Sequence record: PZ154896.1
DNA length: 64,000 nt
Origin: a phage
Direction: 5' to 3' (one strand)
In this document: positions 31,622 to 37,058 of the stretch, one piece after another
Layout: each line of letters starts with the position of its first letter
How positions within the stretch are numbered: position 1 is the stretch's first letter
Made by a program: the position numbers and the translations under genes
Notes under the pieces: model-generated
Seen by the model: only the letters and a program-made list of their open reading frames with translations
Database searches by the model: none
What the model was told of the DNA's origin: nothing

Positions 31622-32080
31622 TTATAGAAGGGTAGTGAGCACCTTATATAATGATTTGCCCATTACATATTCCCATTGAGAAGGTTTAATTAAAGCGAAT
31701 GCATCAAATTCAGGAATCTGTCGTCCGTCTGGGAACGTATGATAGGAATTACAAACACTGTTTCTGAATTGCTCGTGCTCTACAGGGATGGTATATAGGA
31801 ACAGATGAATATTCTTATTGTCTGAGTAATGATGTTCACCTAGGTCTTTCAGGAAGGCAGGGTCATATTGTGTAAACCCAGTTTCTTCTTCGCATTCACG
31901 AATAGCTGCTTCAATAGGAGATTCACCGGGCTCGACACGACCTTTAGGAATATCCCACCGATGAGCTAAAGAACCTTTAGGACGAGAACCAGTTACACGG
32001 CCCATGAATAACTCTTTATCTTTTGTCATGAAGATAATACCAGCTGATAGCTCTTTCACTTTATTTTTCTTACTCATCAT
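31622..32080 (-). CDS. nudE: Nudix hydrolase
   Basis: Nudix box GRVEPGESPIEAAIRECEEETGF; start taken at MMSKKNK. Confidence 0.75.
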   Translation of the reverse strand: MMSKKNKVKELSAGIIFMTKDKELFMGRVTGSRPKGSLAHRWDIPKGRVEPGESPIEAAIRECEEETGFTQYDPAFLKDLGEHHYSDNKNIHLFLYTIPVEHEQFRNSVCNSYHTFPDGRQIPEFDAFALIKPSQWEYVMGKSLYKVLTTLL

Positions 32081-32568
32081 CTCAAATTCCTGCATTCGGT
32101 AATAAAACGTTCAACTTCATTATTCTTGGCTTTTATCTTGTCTTTATGTTCTTGTAAACTACTTTTAATAAGATTAATAATGATGGCGGCGGTACCGCCG
32201 CCAATGATGCCACCAACAACACTTATGATACTAGATGCTAATAAGATAGCAATAATATCAACAAAACCGAAAGAACTCACCTTAGTACTGAAAAACCATA
32301 TAGACGGTACAAATATAATCCATCCTGTTATCCATTGGCACTTATTGAAAAACCTTTCAAGCTCAGCTTGAGTTGTTCGTATTACTTCATCGATAGGTTG
32401 ATATCCATTAATGTATCTGTTCACGATAATACCTGCTGGCTGGTCGATTTTAAATTCTTGGCAAATATTTTTCACTAAGTAGGATGGACATCCTGTCCAA
32501 TCTACTGAATAGTATGAAATACCTTCATTGCCATCGTCTATATTAGACCAATATGTTTTGTTAATCAT
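32077..32568 (-). CDS. membrane protein with C-terminal ERFITECR tail (FIKECR family)
   Basis: 163 aa; hydrophobic segments; conserved C-terminal tail. Confidence 0.5.
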   Translation of the reverse strand: MINKTYWSNIDDGNEGISYYSVDWTGCPSYLVKNICQEFKIDQPAGIIVNRYINGYQPIDEVIRTTQAELERFFNKCQWITGWIIFVPSIWFFSTKVSSFGFVDIIAILLASSIISVVGGIIGGGTAAIIINLIKSSLQEHKDKIKAKNNEVERFITECRNLR

Positions 32569-33255: not shown

Positions 33256-33561
33256 TTATTTTCCTCGACATTCTTTAATGAAATTTTCTAGATTGGTAGA
33301 TTCAATAGCTTTTTTACGAGCTTCCGCGTGTTCTTCTTCAGACAATTTACATTTATAATTGACCCAGACATTATGGTCAAAACTAGTCGTGGCATATAAT
33401 AACAATGCTCCAACGAATAGCAAAAACGGTGATAAGAATACAAAACCAGGAACACCATCCATATCGTAAGCCTTTTGTAATACTGCAACAGAAAGGGCTG
33501 CGTAAAAAGGTGATGCAAATATTGTTAAAAGACCAATTCGGTTGGTTTCGCCTAATTTCAT
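33256..33561 (-). CDS. membrane protein with C-terminal ENFIKECR tail
   Basis: 101 aa; two hydrophobic segments; tail ...LENFIKECRGK. Confidence 0.5.
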   Translation of the reverse strand: MKLGETNRIGLLTIFASPFYAALSVAVLQKAYDMDGVPGFVFLSPFLLFVGALLLYATTSFDHNVWVNYKCKLSEEEHAEARKKAIESTNLENFIKECRGK

Positions 33562-33632: not shown

Positions 33633-34589
33633 TTATTTGAAAGGTTTTACCATATGGAAATTTTGTTTGAAACGTTTGACGTAATCATCATGTCCTAAGC
33701 TTTGGTACATACTTACTACTTTGCTGTAGTTTTCCCAGGCATACTCACGGAACCAACCAGAGGTGATGCTTGTACAGACTTTTTCTAATGCCATCATAAA
33801 ACTGGCTTCAGGGTTAATTTTAAAGTCATTAGGAATCTGAGAACGTTCTAATGCTAGTACACATGATTCTTCGTATACACCGGCCAATTTGACCATTTCT
33901 GGTAATGATTCGAACTTCTCACGTGAGGTCATGACTTCAGAACCGTCTTTCATATAAAATGTATACGCTGGACGGTCTGTTAGTGCAATGGCTTCATGAA
34001 TAGTATCATGGTCATATGTATAGATATCATCTTTAAAGAACGCACTTTTAGAAGTGTCAAGAACCGGGTGAGCATAGTTCAAGGTTTCTTTCTGGCGTTT
34101 CAGCATAATTTCAGTAAGTTCATCGTTCAGTGTAACACCTTTACCACGAAGATACTGAATATGGTTCATAGTCTTTAAAAAGAACGGATTATTTTTCTTG
34201 AAACGATGAGACATCTTAATTGCAAGACATATCTCAGGAGTTGCCCAGTAAAACCCATTCAAACGGTCTTTAGACAAATGTTTCTTGGCGTATTTTAAAA
34301 GGTCATAAGAAGACGTGAAATCTTCAGGAGTGAGTTCACCGACTAATTCACGGACATTAGTGATTGCCGGAACAATATACGCTTCAAAATGAGTTTCGCG
34401 TCCATTATGGAAGCATTTGAAAACTTGGACATCAGGGTTATCTTGATGAACATATACACCCATCATTTGATTTTTGAATGTATTCCAAGAACCTTGGTCT
34501 GCAATAAAGTCCCAGTCACTATTTTTGATAGCGTTAGAATCAATAAGACCATGATAGTGAAGTGCACGAGAACCAATAACTAACATCAT
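33633..34589 (-). CDS. nucleotidyltransferase-fold protein (putative)
   Basis: 318 aa; N-terminal IGSRALHYHGLIDSNAIKNSDWDF fits GS...DxD motif. Confidence 0.4.
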   Translation of the reverse strand: MMLVIGSRALHYHGLIDSNAIKNSDWDFIADQGSWNTFKNQMMGVYVHQDNPDVQVFKCFHNGRETHFEAYIVPAITNVRELVGELTPEDFTSSYDLLKYAKKHLSKDRLNGFYWATPEICLAIKMSHRFKKNNPFFLKTMNHIQYLRGKGVTLNDELTEIMLKRQKETLNYAHPVLDTSKSAFFKDDIYTYDHDTIHEAIALTDRPAYTFYMKDGSEVMTSREKFESLPEMVKLAGVYEESCVLALERSQIPNDFKINPEASFMMALEKVCTSITSGWFREYAWENYSKVVSMYQSLGHDDYVKRFKQNFHMVKPFK

Positions 34590-34617
34590 AATATTTTCCT
34601 CGGATTAATTCATTAAC

Positions 34618-34857
34618 TTAAATTTCACGACATGCGATATCATATTCATCCCAGAGGTCATCGTGTGAAGCCTCTACCAATGGAACGATTGTACCATTTA
34701 TGTCTTCATTATAAGGGCAAATTGTACAGTGCGCATCTTCGAATCGAATGCCTTTGTGTTCAGATTTTTTATAACGCATATCGAATATCTTTGCAAACTT
34801 TTCACGAGTAATGGTTTTAGCAACCACTTCGGTTCCAACACTTTCGTAATAAATCAT
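34618..34857 (-). CDS. hypothetical Cys-containing protein
   Basis: 79-aa ORF. Confidence 0.45.
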   Translation of the reverse strand: MIYYESVGTEVVAKTITREKFAKIFDMRYKKSEHKGIRFEDAHCTICPYNEDINGTIVPLVEASHDDLWDEYDIACREI

Positions 34858-34875
34858 TGTGGACTCCGTTTAATT

Positions 34876-34915
34876 TGATAGGACTACTATAACATAGCCC
34901 TATCTTGTTGTAAAC
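34876..34915 (-). promoter_or_regulatory. PeSL-like early promoter cassette
   Basis: rc: GTTTAC, inverted repeat GATAGGGCTA/TAGTCCTATC. Confidence 0.55.
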
Positions 34916-34919
34916 TGTT

Positions 34920-35117
34920 TTAGCAAGAATAACTAGATGATACCCAGCCTTGAACAGTAATACTATTATTTGATACCGAGATCGCGTTCTGGAGATTCAG
35001 ACCTGCGTTATCTTCAATCCATAATGTAACTTCTTCGCGTTCTTCTGTTGCAATTTGGAACAGGTTTTCCAGGGCAGCTACTGCCGTACGTACAGCACAA
35101 TCTAATTCACGAGACAT
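34920..35117 (-). CDS. small protein, WxSSxxC-tail family member 1
   Basis: 65 aa; ends ...GWVSSSYSC. Confidence 0.5.
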   Translation of the reverse strand: MSRELDCAVRTAVAALENLFQIATEEREEVTLWIEDNAGLNLQNAISVSNNSITVQGWVSSSYSC

Positions 35118-35126
35118 ATGATTTCC

Positions 35127-35399
35127 TTAGCAAGTGTGAGAAGATGCAATCCAACCACCAGTTTCGAGGCTCAGATTGTAGTCGTATTGGTAAACGTCAG
35201 CCCATTCAGCATAGCCGTTTTTTGTACAACGTTCAAGATCGGCTTTAAGATGTCCGGGTGAATGATAGGTTCCACCCATACCATAAGCTGGACACAAGTC
35301 GAATGTTGTGTTTTGTTTATCAGCAATTTCTTTGGCAGCCTCAATAGCTGCATAGATTTTTGCTACAGCTTCAGCCAGTTCGGTTTGTTCTTTAGACAT
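35127..35399 (-). CDS. small protein, WxSSxxC-tail family member 2
   Basis: 90 aa; ends ...GGWIASSHTC. Confidence 0.5.
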   Translation of the reverse strand: MSKEQTELAEAVAKIYAAIEAAKEIADKQNTTFDLCPAYGMGGTYHSPGHLKADLERCTKNGYAEWADVYQYDYNLSLETGGWIASSHTC

Positions 35400-35408
35400 A
35401 GTGATTCC

Positions 35409-35714
35409 TTAGCACAACGCAGAAGACGAAACCCAAGCACCTTCAGTAATAACGTAACCATTACCTTCACGCTTAACATCGCCACCATTATTTTCAATTT
35501 CATTTTTCATCCACTGGGATACGATTTCACCCTTAGGATAATAAGTACGACCGCTACCATAATCACCTACAGAAAATGATACGGCGTATTGGTCTGCGAT
35601 CTTTGTTGCTTCTTCTTCGATACGTTCAGCTTGATTCAGAAGTTTATAAATTGCATCTGAAGCGGATTTGGCATCATTAAACTCTGGTACTTTAATTTCA
35701 ATAATCTTACTCAT
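35409..35714 (-). CDS. small protein, WxSSxxC-tail family member 3
   Basis: 101 aa; ends ...GAWVSSSALC. Confidence 0.5.
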   Translation of the reverse strand: MSKIIEIKVPEFNDAKSASDAIYKLLNQAERIEEEATKIADQYAVSFSVGDYGSGRTYYPKGEIVSQWMKNEIENNGGDVKREGNGYVITEGAWVSSSALC

Positions 35715-36070
35715 TTTCTACATTCCTTAATAAAGTTTTCTATTGTTTCATTTTCACGTCTAGCTAGGAGTTCATTATAACTAATCATTTGAGAAGCGTA
35801 AACCTTTTTATTTTTCTTGTTATGGTTTATAAAATCGTAGTAAAAATAGACTACAGTACAAAATGATGCGATGGATGCAAAGGCTTGGGTATACCGTAAG
35901 TCCTGCCATTGGTCTGTGAATCCACCAGTGTTCCCTATAAATCCTAACACAACGCCGTCAATAAGAAATCCAACTAATCCAAAGGCAAATCCCATGCCAA
36001 TACTCATAATAAAAATTAGAATGTTCTCACCAAGAGAAGGCCATACGGTTAAGAGTTGAGGCTTTTGCAT
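35711..36070 (-). CDS. membrane protein with C-terminal ENFIKECRK tail
   Basis: 119 aa; hydrophobic segments; stop overlaps next start (ATGA). Confidence 0.5.
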   Translation of the reverse strand: MQKPQLLTVWPSLGENILIFIMSIGMGFAFGLVGFLIDGVVLGFIGNTGGFTDQWQDLRYTQAFASIASFCTVVYFYYDFINHNKKNKKVYASQMISYNELLARRENETIENFIKECRK

Positions 36071-36444
36071 CTTATTTCCTTAACGAATTCCATAGCTTCT
36101 TCATATTCATACTTTTTAACAGCTTCATCATACTGAGCTTGGGCTTTTGCGCACTGAACTTTCCATTCTCTTAATCGGGCTCTGTGATGACGTCCTTGGT
36201 ACCAATATCCCACCCAGTTAATAGGCATTAATAAAAATGGTACAATAAACGACCCGGCTATAATAAGTAAAAACACTGCATCAGACGATATAACTTCACT
36301 AGAATCTAAAACAGCTCCTATAATCATAAAGATTAAAAATGCTAAAGCTAAAATAGGGCCAAATAGTACTTCATTTGGGATTAATTTACGCTTGTATTCG
36401 TATGCCCAGGGCTTAATTGGCATGTACAGGGTTGGCTTTGACAT
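36049..36444 (-). CDS. membrane protein with EFVKEIRCK tail variant
   Basis: start set at MSKPTLY; two TM-like segments. Confidence 0.45.
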   Translation of the reverse strand: MSKPTLYMPIKPWAYEYKRKLIPNEVLFGPILALAFLIFMIIGAVLDSSEVISSDAVFLLIIAGSFIVPFLLMPINWVGYWYQGRHHRARLREWKVQCAKAQAQYDEAVKKYEYEEAMEFVKEIRCKSLNS

Positions 36445-37009
36445 ATTCTCTACATTCCATAATAAATTGCTCAAGGATTAAATTGTTAGTGAAATTAGGA
36501 CTAACAACCATGGTTTCATAAAGCGCATCAATAGCACTTAAAGCATCAACTCTTTTAAGCAAAGGCTTGCCTTCATACATAGTTTCAGAATCGACGATTA
36601 ACGTAAAGTAATATTTTTTATTATCGACTAGAACTTCAGTATCGATATAAAACATGTTAGACCTTAAGAGCTTATCTCTAAAACCATAATAATCTTCAGA
36701 GCGTTCGCTGATATATTCCCATTCAGTGTTTAAACAACAAACAGACCATGTAGGAGCAACGAAATCAGTGAATCTAATATCATGGTCTGCAACTAGTTTA
36801 GCAATAGCTCCGATATCATGAATCATAATACCTGGGGCTAATAAAGATTTTCGGTTATTTGCATATTCAGTTGTCTCATAAGAAGACGACCAGTACCATT
36901 TACGTCCAGTTGCAACATATCGTAATGAATCAACTAAAGACGTAGGTGGATTTACCTTATTTCGGAACTCTTCGAACATTGAGTCAATATCATTATTTTG
37001 GTTTCGCAT
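36413..37009 (-). CDS. hypothetical protein with FIMECR motif near C-terminus
   Basis: about 198 aa from MRNQNND. Confidence 0.45.
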   Translation of the reverse strand: MRNQNNDIDSMFEEFRNKVNPPTSLVDSLRYVATGRKWYWSSSYETTEYANNRKSLLAPGIMIHDIGAIAKLVADHDIRFTDFVAPTWSVCCLNTEWEYISERSEDYYGFRDKLLRSNMFYIDTEVLVDNKKYYFTLIVDSETMYEGKPLLKRVDALSAIDALYETMVVSPNFTNNLILEQFIMECREYVKANPVHAN

Positions 37010-37058
37010 GTTAACTCCTTTATTATCCAAAAGGAGGACCTGAGTCCTCCGTATTATT

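What the first reader, a model, noticed from the sequence alone, without database searches (positions are those of the whole stretch)
34920..35714. Tandem trio of small soluble paralogs ending in G-W-(I/V)-(A/S)-S-S-x-x-C
Three consecutive ORFs of 65, 90 and 101 aa end with ...GWVSSSYSC, ...GGWIASSHTC and ...GAWVSSSALC, each with a helical, Ala/Glu-rich N-terminal half. Two have stop codons embedded in TGCTAAGGAA, which supplies the SD for the next gene. A conserved C-terminal Cys tail in tandem paralogs suggests a shared partner or modification.
Basis: seen in the sequence. Interest (0 to 1): 0.6.

Follow-up and report, generated by a model that had tools for sequence, protein, structure and literature searches.

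The report
Tailed small proteins with partner enzyme
The three small genes are real members of a large, unstudied phage protein family ending in Trp-x-Ser-Ser-Ser-x-x-Cys, and this family nearly always sits just upstream of one conserved enzyme-like gene, so together they look like an undescribed two-part phage module.

Summary
Three minus-strand ORFs (34920-35117, 35127-35399, 35409-35714) of an RB69-like T-even phage end in GWVSSSYSC, GGWIASSHTC and GAWVSSSALC, and two junctions read TGCTAAGGAA. ORF2 and ORF3 are true paralogs. ORF1 shares only the N-terminal helix and the tail.

The trio belongs to an uncharacterised, phage-restricted family: at least 277 clusters at 50% identity. Its members are small and acidic. 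The tail W-x-(S/A/P)-S-S-x-x-Cys is near-invariant, and Cys is the last residue in 136 of 147 members.

The tail is selected at the protein level, because its Ser positions use both TCN and AGY codons. Some members repeat the W-x-S-S-x-C unit internally.

The main new result is synteny. The family occurs as 1-6 tandem copies directly upstream of, and on the same strand as, a ~300-aa gene (window 33633-34589, RB69 ORF134c, Pfam DUF7277+DUF7275).
- Anchored on the small proteins, 34 of 34 loci with room have this gene.
- Anchored on the enzyme, 73 of 79 loci have upstream tail ORFs.

The enzyme-like protein has a G-S...D-x-D nucleotidyltransferase-like N-terminus and an invariant His/Asp/Glu cluster.

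Best reading (inferred): the tail is the common handle through which the small proteins meet this enzyme, probably as modification clients. No function is published for either part. Interest is moderately high.

The parts
35409..35714 (-). ORF3, 101 aa (split into RB69 ORF139c and ORF138c in the reference record). 'GDYGSGRTYYP' subtype of the tail family. Ends GAWVSSSALC.
   Evidence: phrog_899, E 1.8e-22; family HMM E 7.9e-22.
35127..35399 (-). ORF2, 90 aa (RB69 ORF137c). 'AYGMGGTY' subtype. Ends GGWIASSHTC.
   Evidence: phrog_899, E 4e-18; AF2 pLDDT 94.3: H3-29, E32-35, E43-46, H48-60, H66-73, E81-85, H86-89.
34920..35117 (-). ORF1, 65 aa (RB69 ORF136c). Reduced member with the N-terminal helix and the tail but no YGxGG hairpin. 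Ends QGWVSSSYSC.
   Evidence: phrog_4882; shares only the 14-residue tail with the family profile; 252 phage records.
35412..35435 (-). ORF3 tail codons, W-V-S-S-S-A-L-C.
35130..35153 (-). ORF2 tail codons, W-I-A-S-S-H-T-C.
34923..34946 (-). ORF1 tail codons, W-V-S-S-S-Y-S-C.
35405..35414 (-). TGCTAAGGAA junction: Cys codon, stop codon and SD for ORF2.
35123..35132 (-). TGCTAAGGAA junction: Cys codon, stop codon and SD for ORF1.
33633..34589 (-). Candidate partner gene, 318 aa (RB69 ORF134c). N-terminal DUF7277 carries G6-S7...D25-x-D27 (nucleotidyltransferase-like). C-terminal DUF7275 carries invariant K125, S127, H128, H194, D195, H198, E240, E241, E248 and R249.
   Evidence: (Pfam E 4.9e-79 and 3.2e-27).
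34618..34857 (-). Intervening 79-aa ORF (RB69 ORF135c, phrog_3723). Conserved only in T-even relatives. Not shown to be part of the module.
35774..35802 (-). Promoter-like site inside e.3, upstream of the trio (TTTACG-17-TATAAT). A middle-promoter-like site is annotated at the equivalent place in phage SA79RD.
   Evidence: Consensus match only.
34886..34914 (-). Promoter-like site between ORF1 and ORF135c (TTTACA-17-TATAGT with an upstream TG).
   Evidence: Consensus match only.

Best explanation
The trio is the small-protein array of a conserved, phage-restricted two-part module.

Part 1 is a family of small acidic proteins (pI about 4-5). Each has an N-terminal amphipathic helix, a beta-hairpin whose turn reads YG(M/S)G(G/R)TYY, an acidic linker of variable length, and a near-invariant C-terminus W-x-(S/A/P)-S-S-x-x-Cys-COOH. 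Part 2 is a protein of about 300 aa encoded immediately downstream (window 33633-34589). It has a G-S...D-x-D nucleotidyltransferase-like N-terminal domain (DUF7277) and a C-terminal domain with an invariant His/Asp/Glu cluster (DUF7275).

Shown here: the family, the tail, its selection at the protein level, the tandem arrays of 1-6 copies, and the synteny.

Inferred: the tail is the common handle by which several different small proteins engage the same co-encoded enzyme, most likely as acceptor clients. Transfer of a nucleotidyl group to the invariant Ser hydroxyls next to the terminal Cys is the chemistry most natural for a Pol-beta-type transferase. The conserved Tyr residues of the hairpin turn are an alternative acceptor.

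The distinct bodies of ORF3, ORF2 and ORF1 would then carry the modified tail to different targets during early or middle infection. The biological end point (host takeover or counter-defence) is not known.
For: Family and tail:
- The exhaustive profile search finds 277 clusters at E <= 1e-3, nearly all 70-120 aa, with the profile ending at the protein's end.
- W(-7), S(-4), S(-3) and C(0) are present in 134-136 of the 136 sequences that end in Cys. Cys is the last residue in 136 of 147 members. The median member has one Cys and a net charge of -8.
- The W-x-S-S-x-C unit is repeated inside some members (P0129, P0091, P0114, P0104, P0105; JS98 orf126; Moon gp140).
- The tail survives in members that have lost the hairpin (ORF1).
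- Codon usage shows selection on the amino acids rather than the DNA.

Synteny:
- The enzyme gene lies downstream on the same strand, 18-1372 nt away, in 34 of 34 small-protein-anchored loci with room.
- 73 of 79 enzyme-anchored IMG/VR loci have 1-5 upstream tail ORFs, against 2 loci with any downstream.
- The same holds for 6 of 6 metagenomic contigs, 3 of 3 full-length hits in unrelated phage families (Otagovirus, Phapecoctavirus, Acajnonavirus), and 6 of 6 MAG contigs.
- In many lineages the last tail ORF ends 1-10 nt before the enzyme start.

Direction of dependence: the small proteins were never seen without the enzyme, whereas the enzyme sometimes occurs without them. That fits clients that depend on an enzyme.

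Subtype conservation: the YGSGxTY, YGMGG and double-motif subtypes co-occur in both Straboviridae and Phapecoctavirus arrays, which argues for non-redundant roles.

Enzyme motifs: G6, S7, D25 and D27 are invariant, and there is a later h-h-E-x-E-h-A strand. A few depositors label homologues 'nucleotidyltransferase'.
Against: - No direct evidence of binding or modification exists.
- The nucleotidyltransferase assignment rests on motifs only. Pfam finds just the two DUFs, apart from one weak DUF6036 hit at E 0.25. The PDB profile search returns nothing. hhalign against E. coli Cca and GlnD is not significant.
- AlphaFold2 places the tail inside the fold with high confidence, so its conservation could be structural.
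- About 6% of enzyme loci, and the distant short homologues, lack tail proteins, so the enzyme does not strictly need them.
- In this window a 79-aa ORF and a promoter-like site separate the trio from the enzyme gene.
Confidence: 0.45

Rival explanations
1. The tail is an intrinsic part of a compact alpha/beta fold and, together with the Gly-rich YGMGG turn, forms a site for a small ligand or metal. The small proteins would then act as sponges or carriers. The downstream enzyme would be linked only functionally, for example by making or destroying the ligand.
For: - AF2 models residues 81-85 as a strand and 86-89 as a helix, with pLDDT of about 88-94.
- In short members only about 6 residues separate the hairpin from the Trp (for example AYGMGGTYDGETGEWRPSSQNC). 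Strand 3 must therefore pair with strand 2, which brings the S-S-x-x-C next to the YGMGG turn (inference).
- The invariant Gly, Ser, Tyr and Cys residues are typical of phosphate or metal sites (general knowledge).
Against: - ORF1-type members keep the tail but have no YGMGG turn.
- The W-x-S-S-x-C unit is repeated in the acidic, presumably flexible linker of several members, which is the behaviour of a linear motif rather than a fold element.
Confidence: 0.22
2. Toxin-antitoxin-like regulation. The DUF7277-DUF7275 protein is a host-directed transferase of the MenT/AbiEii kind, and the small acidic proteins upstream hold it in check or time its action by inserting their Cys tail into its metal site.
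For: - The gene order is small acidic protein or proteins followed by the enzyme, often translationally coupled.
- The enzyme has an invariant His/Asp/Glu cluster that a terminal thiol and carboxylate could ligate (inference).
Against: - The enzyme occurs without any tail protein in some phages, and up to 6 different 'antitoxins' per enzyme would be unusual.
- There are no PADLOC or Pfam toxin-antitoxin hits.
- The enzyme is not basic (pI 6.5).
Confidence: 0.15
3. RiPP-like maturation. The Ser-Ser-x-x-Cys C-terminus is chemically cross-linked, by Ser activation and elimination followed by Cys addition (lanthionine-like) or by C-terminal Cys decarboxylation (AviCys-like). The folded body would serve as the leader.
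For: - Ser(-3)-x-x-Cys-COOH has the same spacing as the AviCys-forming end of epidermin-type peptides (from memory, not tested).
- Ser, Ser and Cys are invariant.
- The Ser-Ser-x-Cys units are repeated.
- An adjacent two-domain enzyme could activate Ser and then eliminate (inference).
Against: - No LanB/LanM/LanKC, LanD/HFCD, YcaO or radical-SAM gene is found among the conserved neighbours. The DUF7275 gene is the only gene shared across lineages.
- Here the 'core' is the most conserved part and the 'leader' is variable, which is the reverse of typical RiPPs.
- The proteins are 65-140 aa and predicted to fold.
Confidence: 0.08
4. The shared ending is a by-product of DNA-level signals (the stop/SD overlap TGCTAAGGAA) or of chance.
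For: Two of the three junctions are identical at 10 nt.
Against: - The tail is conserved across at least 277 divergent clusters with synonymous variation: both Ser codon families, TGC and TGT, and all three stop codons. Only half of the 90 distinct tails are followed by an SD-like sequence.
- The chance expectation is 3e-4 per window.
Confidence: 0.01

Closest known systems
PHROG families phrog_899, phrog_4882 (small proteins) and phrog_2141 (enzyme); Pfam DUF7277 and DUF7275
   Same: The window proteins are members by HMM: E 4e-18 to 1.6e-36 for the small proteins and 3.8e-150 for the enzyme, and Pfam E 4.9e-79 and 3.2e-27.
   Different: These are purely bioinformatic groupings with no assigned function. 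Neither the tail motif nor the gene pairing turned up in the paper library searched.
Pol-beta-type protein nucleotidyltransferases with protein clients (GlnD-PII, GlnE-glutamine synthetase, MNT-HEPN type VII toxin-antitoxin)
   Same: An enzyme with a G-[GS]...D-x-D signature is paired with small protein partners. GlnD and Cca also carry a metal-dependent hydrolase domain after the transferase domain (general knowledge).
   Different: There is no detectable sequence relationship. The known acceptors are Tyr residues in loops, not a Ser-rich C-terminus ending in Cys. The known systems have one client, not arrays of 1-6 paralogs.
Phd/YefM/RelB-type antitoxins
   Same: They are the best structural neighbours of the ORF2 model. 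They are small acidic proteins encoded upstream of their partner and act through a C-terminal tail.
Lanthipeptide and AviCys-containing RiPP precursors (epidermin type)
   Same: A helical N-terminal part and a C-terminal Ser-x-x-Cys-COOH.
   Different: No known maturation enzyme is nearby. The tail rather than the leader is the conserved element, and the proteins are long and folded.

Membership tests
W-x-S-S-S-x-x-Cys-tailed small phage proteins (phrog_899 / phrog_4882; defined here) | C-terminal W-x-(S/A/P)-S-S-x-x-Cys with Cys as the last residue. | tested here: met
   All three ORFs.
W-x-S-S-S-x-x-Cys-tailed small phage proteins (phrog_899 / phrog_4882; defined here) | N-terminal helix followed by a beta-hairpin with a YG(M/S)G(G/R)TYY turn. 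| tested here: met
   Met for ORF2 and ORF3. Not met for ORF1, which has only the helix and the tail.
W-x-S-S-S-x-x-Cys-tailed small phage proteins (phrog_899 / phrog_4882; defined here) | Encoded upstream of, and on the same strand as, a DUF7277-DUF7275 gene. | tested here: met
   In the window the gap is 538 nt from ORF2 and 330 nt from ORF1. This holds in 34 of 34 loci with room.
Pol-beta-type nucleotidyltransferase superfamily (for the partner, window 33633-34589) | An h-G-[GS] ... D-h-[DE]-h signature plus a third carboxylate on a later strand. | tested here: inconclusive
   The motif is present and invariant (G6, S7, D25, D27; a later ExE strand), but the spacing is 17 residues. There is no HMM or profile support: Pfam finds only the DUFs and one DUF6036 hit at E 0.25, the PDB search finds none, and hhalign against E. 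coli Cca aligns exactly this motif at only 0.7% probability.
HD-domain metal-dependent phosphohydrolases (for the C-terminal domain of the partner) | H...HD...D metal-binding motif with HMM-level similarity. | tested here: inconclusive
   H128, H194-D195, H198, E240, E241 and E248 are invariant. No Pfam HD hit is found, and hhalign against the HD-containing Cca and GlnD is negative.
Lanthipeptide / AviCys RiPP precursors | A neighbouring dehydratase, cyclase or LanD-type (HFCD) decarboxylase. | tested here: not met
   Neighbour clustering across 38 locus groups finds only the DUF7275 gene shared between lineages. Pfam scans of other neighbours are negative.
Phd/YefM antitoxins | Significant fold or sequence similarity to the Phd/YefM N-terminal domain. 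| tested here: not met
Known anti-phage defence or counter-defence proteins (PADLOC-DB) | An HMM match. | tested here: not met
   Nothing below E 0.01 for the trio, ORF135c, ORF134c or ORF132c.

The most novel reading that the evidence does not exclude
The DUF7277-DUF7275 protein is a new kind of protein-modifying enzyme that covalently alters the Ser-Ser-x-x-Cys C-terminus of its upstream client proteins. One route would be nucleotidylation of Ser, possibly followed by elimination and Cys addition to give a thioether ring. If so, thousands of virulent phages would encode a previously unseen class of post-translationally 'tailed' effector proteins, with the paralog array supplying different cargo bodies for one shared chemistry.
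Probability: 0.12. Interest if true: 0.9.

Novelty: categorically new. Interest (0 to 1): 0.68.

Why it matters
Both parts are abundant in large virulent phages. The enzyme occurs in 734 GenBank phage records and 2,881 clusters at 90% identity, and the small proteins form at least 277 clusters at 50% identity. The hosts include Enterobacteria, Aeromonas, Acinetobacter, Pseudomonas and Xanthomonas, along with many uncultured phages. Neither part has any assigned function.

A near-invariant eight-residue C-terminal motif ending in the protein's only Cys, kept in up to six differently built paralogs next to one enzyme, is a clear and testable hypothesis. One co-expression and mass-spectrometry experiment would show whether this is a new protein modification. 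Phage knock-outs would show whether it serves host takeover or counter-defence.

The finding also gives a functional handle on two Pfam DUFs. It further shows that the RB69 reference annotation splits one of the genes.

Tried and rejected
- Sequence libraries gave nothing informative for the trio. Pfam returned only sub-threshold noise (Peptidase_S78_2 and E217_Gp32 for ORF3). NCBIfam returned nothing, PADLOC nothing below E 0.01, and the PDB profile search only E > 0.3.
- The profile-based locus search with the 134-sequence alignment failed. It was replaced by a degenerate DNA pattern for YGMGGTY.
- A third conserved gene was looked for. The proteins downstream of the enzyme (ORF132c/Moon gp137, Acj9 p073, and the L086, L088 and L091 neighbours) are lineage-specific and unrelated to each other. 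ORF135c is restricted to T-even relatives.
- The enzyme could not be assigned. The PDB sequence and profile searches were empty. hhalign against E. coli Cca and GlnD was not significant.
- Literature searches for the ORF names, the DUF numbers, the motif strings and thematic terms found nothing relevant.
- The DNA-level (SD overlap) explanation and chance were rejected.
- Bacterial homologues of the enzyme were sought. Only 6 loci turned up in 185,579 species genomes, all on MAG contigs that also carry tail ORFs, so these are probably phage DNA.

Full report
**1. What is there**

The window is an RB69-like Mosigvirus, a T-even phage. The region 34600-36100 is 98% identical to RB69 68925-70426 and to more than 130 other records. 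On the minus strand lie three consecutive ORFs:
- ORF3, 35409-35714, 101 aa
- ORF2, 35127-35399, 90 aa
- ORF1, 34920-35117, 65 aa

They end in GAWVSSSALC, GGWIASSHTC and QGWVSSSYSC. They correspond to RB69 ORF139c+138c, ORF137c and ORF136c, all annotated as hypothetical.

ORF3 starts in an ATGA overlap with the stop of e.3. The ORF3/ORF2 and ORF2/ORF1 junctions are TGC-TAA-GGAA followed by a short spacer and ATG.

The tail pattern W-x-[SA]-S-S-x-x-C at a C-terminus is expected about 3e-4 times among the window's 955 segments of at least 30 aa. It occurs three times, all here. Against the JS98 orthologues (51-65% amino-acid identity), differences concentrate at codon position 3, so these are protein-coding genes under purifying selection.

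**2. Are they paralogs?**

ORF2 and ORF3 align over 73 residues (29% identity, E 4e-6), and both match phrog_899. ORF1 (phrog_4882) matches the family profile only in its last 14 residues (hhalign E 1.6e-5). It is a reduced relative that keeps the N-terminal helix and the tail but lacks the central hairpin.

**3. The family**

No Pfam, NCBIfam, PADLOC or PDB sequence match exists. An exhaustive profile search of 1.84 billion cluster representatives found 277 proteins at E <= 1e-3. Almost all are 70-120 aa, and the profile's last position coincides with the protein's last residue.

The common architecture is:
- an N-terminal helix ending in E-A-E-x-I-A-D-E
- a strand (V/L)-x-F-x-F
- a turn reading A-Y-G-M-G-G-T-Y-Y-P, or G-D-Y-G-S-G-R-T-Y-Y-P in the ORF3 type
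- an acidic D/E/W/S-rich linker of very variable length
- the ending G-x-W-x-(S/A/P)-S-S-x-x-C

Among 147 members, 136 end exactly in Cys and 7 more have a single extra residue. W(-7), S(-4), S(-3) and C(0) are present in 134-136 of the 136 sequences ending in Cys. The median protein has one Cys and a net charge of -8. The window proteins have pI 4.1-4.8.

In several members the unit W/F-x-S-S-(x)-C recurs inside the linker:
- P0129: RWESSSEGWESSSEGWVSSSSQC
- P0091: NWDSSSSC...GWQSSSSNC
- P0114: DFDSSGCSDDFDSSGCS...HWLSSSESC
- JS98 orf126 and Moon gp140: DWL(N/S)SSC ... W(Y/Q)(P/S)SSC

Across 90 distinct tail DNAs, Ser(-4) and Ser(-3) use both TCN and AGY codons. Cys uses TGC (67) and TGT (23), all three stop codons occur, and only half are followed by an SD-like sequence. 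The tail is therefore selected as protein, not as regulatory DNA.

**4. Structure**

With a 134-sequence alignment, AlphaFold2 gives ORF2 a pLDDT of 94.3 and pTM of 0.81. The model has helix 3-29, strands 32-35 and 43-46, two inserted helices, strand 81-85 containing the Trp, and a short helix 86-89 (S-S-H-T).

In short members only about six residues separate the hairpin from the Trp. Strand 3 must therefore pair with strand 2, which would place the S-S-x-x-C next to the YGMGG turn. This is an inference.

**5. The decisive context**

I scanned IMG/VR for a degenerate YGMGGTY pattern and searched the loci with a family HMM. Members turned up in 48 loci, usually as tandem arrays: 2-3 by HMM and up to 5-6 with a tail-aware search. 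Examples are L040 with six copies, JS98 with five consecutive tail genes (one of them unannotated), and a pair in Xanthomonas jumbo phage XbC2.

Clustering all neighbouring ORFs showed one gene shared across lineages: the homologue of window 33633-34589 (RB69 ORF134c, Pfam DUF7277+DUF7275), found in 30 of 38 locus groups. In all 34 loci with about 1.2 kb or more of downstream sequence, this gene lies on the same strand 18-1372 nt downstream. The loci lacking it are truncated on that side.

The reverse test gives the same picture:
- Of 79 IMG/VR loci retrieved with the enzyme profile, 73 have 1-5 same-strand tail ORFs within 3.5 kb upstream, against 2 loci with any such ORF in the roughly 4 kb downstream.
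- The same holds for 6 of 6 metagenomic contigs.
- It holds for Pseudomonas phiPsa347, Escherichia Phapecoctavirus anhysbys and Acinetobacter Acj9.
- It holds for 6 of 6 MAG contigs.

There are exceptions. Two lineages in IMG/VR lack tail ORFs (L123, and L139/140/145/163). So do the distant, shorter homologues in KVP40, Streptomyces phage Wakanda and Gordonia phage Toniann.

No third gene is conserved across lineages. The enzyme is essentially phage-restricted, with 6 loci in 185,579 species genomes, all on MAG contigs. It is also abundant: 734 phage records and 2,881 clusters at 90% identity.

**6. The partner protein**

An alignment of 24 diverse homologues, extended to the distant ones, shows an invariant N-terminal h-h-h-I-G-S-x-A ... 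D-x-D-h-h followed by a strand h-h-E-x-E-h-A. This is the signature pattern of Pol-beta-type nucleotidyltransferases (established knowledge). A few depositors annotate homologues as 'nucleotidyltransferase'.

The C-terminal domain has four conserved blocks:
- K125, S127, H128, R129 (LKMSHRYLKNSPHFxKT)
- Y190, D193, H194, D195, H198 (YDHDSIHEA)
- E240, E241, E248, R249 (EExxVLALERS)
- KVCTSITSGWFREYAWEN

The His/Asp/Glu cluster looks like a metal site. No HMM or profile method links either domain to a characterised family, so the enzyme class is an inference from motifs. Cys272 of the last block is V or I in the three distant homologues that lack tail proteins. That is only a weak hint, because a few tail-associated enzymes also lack it.

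**7. Most likely mechanism**

Shown: a conserved module made of tail-protein arrays plus one enzyme-like protein.

Inferred: the tail is the shared handle through which structurally different small proteins meet that enzyme. Four observations favour an enzyme-to-client direction.
- The small proteins are never seen without the enzyme, whereas the enzyme sometimes stands alone.
- The tail is retained even when the rest of the fold is lost.
- The tail unit can be multiplied within one protein.
- Distinct subtypes are co-inherited in unrelated phage families, which argues that the paralogs are not redundant.

If the enzyme is a Pol-beta-type transferase, its natural acceptors are hydroxyl groups. 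The invariant Ser-Ser next to the terminal Cys, or alternatively the invariant Tyr residues of the hairpin turn, are the obvious candidates.

I put 0.45 on 'the tail engages the co-encoded enzyme', and within that perhaps half on actual nucleotidylation.

The rivals are:
- a structural or ligand-binding tail (0.22)
- toxin-antitoxin-like inhibition of the enzyme by tail insertion (0.15)
- RiPP-like cross-linking (0.08)
- a DNA-level artefact (0.01, rejected)

**8. Comparison with known systems**

The module works most like enzyme-client pairs such as GlnD-PII or MNT-HEPN, but it is not a detectable member of any of them. It resembles antitoxin-toxin gene order and, faintly, the Phd/YefM fold, without passing either test. 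The Ser-x-x-Cys-COOH spacing recalls AviCys-forming lantibiotic precursors, but none of the defining enzymes is present. Both parts exist in databases only as PHROG or DUF groupings without function. I found no paper on the motif or the pairing in the library searched.

**9. Verdict**

- The module is real, widespread, phage-specific and functionally unassigned.
- I file it as lying outside every characterised family I could test. Its chemistry is unknown and may prove to be a variant of protein nucleotidylation.
- Interest is 0.68. It is a clean, cheap-to-test hypothesis about an abundant pair of phage genes, but so far it has no phenotype.

Noticed in passing
window 35409-35714; L001 4810-5116 (RB69 NC_004928 69734-70040): The RB69 reference record carries one extra T after CAGTGG, which splits the 101-aa ORF3 into ORF139c (71 aa) and ORF138c (33 aa). 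The ORF is intact in this window and in other Mosigvirus records. This is either a sequencing error or a lab-strain frameshift in the reference.
   Followed up: yes
window 32077-32568, 33256-33561, 35711-36070, 36413-37030 (all minus strand): Four neighbouring ORFs (the e.2, ORF133c, e.3 and e.5-like genes; RB69 annotates e.2 and e.3 as membrane proteins) share a second C-terminal motif, (N/R/Q)-F-I-(K/T/M)-E-C-R. That is 4 of 268 segments of at least 60 aa. JS98 orf130 and Moon gp143 and gp139 have similar endings (TFIKECKS, TFIENCKNEK, LFIMQCRMRKTECC).
   Followed up: partly
L004 2900-3109 (JS98 EF469154, reverse complement): An unannotated 69-aa ORF ending GFWFSSSMSC lies between orf127 and orf126. 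JS98 therefore has five consecutive tail genes (orf129, orf128, orf127, this ORF, and orf126 with two motif copies).
   Followed up: partly
L086 3113-3412: In one metagenomic phage contig a ClpS homologue (Pfam E 8.5e-27) sits between a tail protein and the DUF7275 gene. This could be coincidence or a hint of a link to protein turnover.
   Followed up: no
L082 4783-6936 (Acj9); L081 6200-6933; L085 5555-6295; L091 6828-7643: NAD-related genes lie within about 3 kb downstream of the DUF7275 gene in four unrelated phages: PRPP synthetase and nicotinamide phosphoribosyltransferase in Acj9, and Sir2-like genes in anhysbys, KVP40 and L091. In the window the Nudix hydrolase nudE (e.1) lies downstream of the enzyme gene, at 65723-66181 in RB69 coordinates against 67958-68914 for ORF134c.
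   Followed up: no
L083 3594-3893, L084 3600-3893, L085 2360-2656: The short, distant DUF7275 homologues of Streptomyces phage Wakanda, Gordonia phage Toniann and Vibrio phage KVP40 lack tail proteins. Each is instead flanked by a 97-99-aa protein. Their relatedness was judged by eye only and not tested.
   Followed up: no
L080 2250-2666, L089 3152-3553, L095 3702-3989: A variant subtype directly upstream of the enzyme keeps an internal W-E-(A/S)-S-G-x-C-E-W-E unit but ends in ...D-Y-G-W-N-(V/I) or ...D-S-D-W-N instead of Cys.
   Followed up: partly
window 34618-34857: The 79-aa ORF135c between the trio and the enzyme gene ends ...LWDEYDIACREI. This has Trp-to-Cys spacing similar to the tail but no Ser-Ser. 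It is conserved only in T-even relatives.
   Followed up: partly
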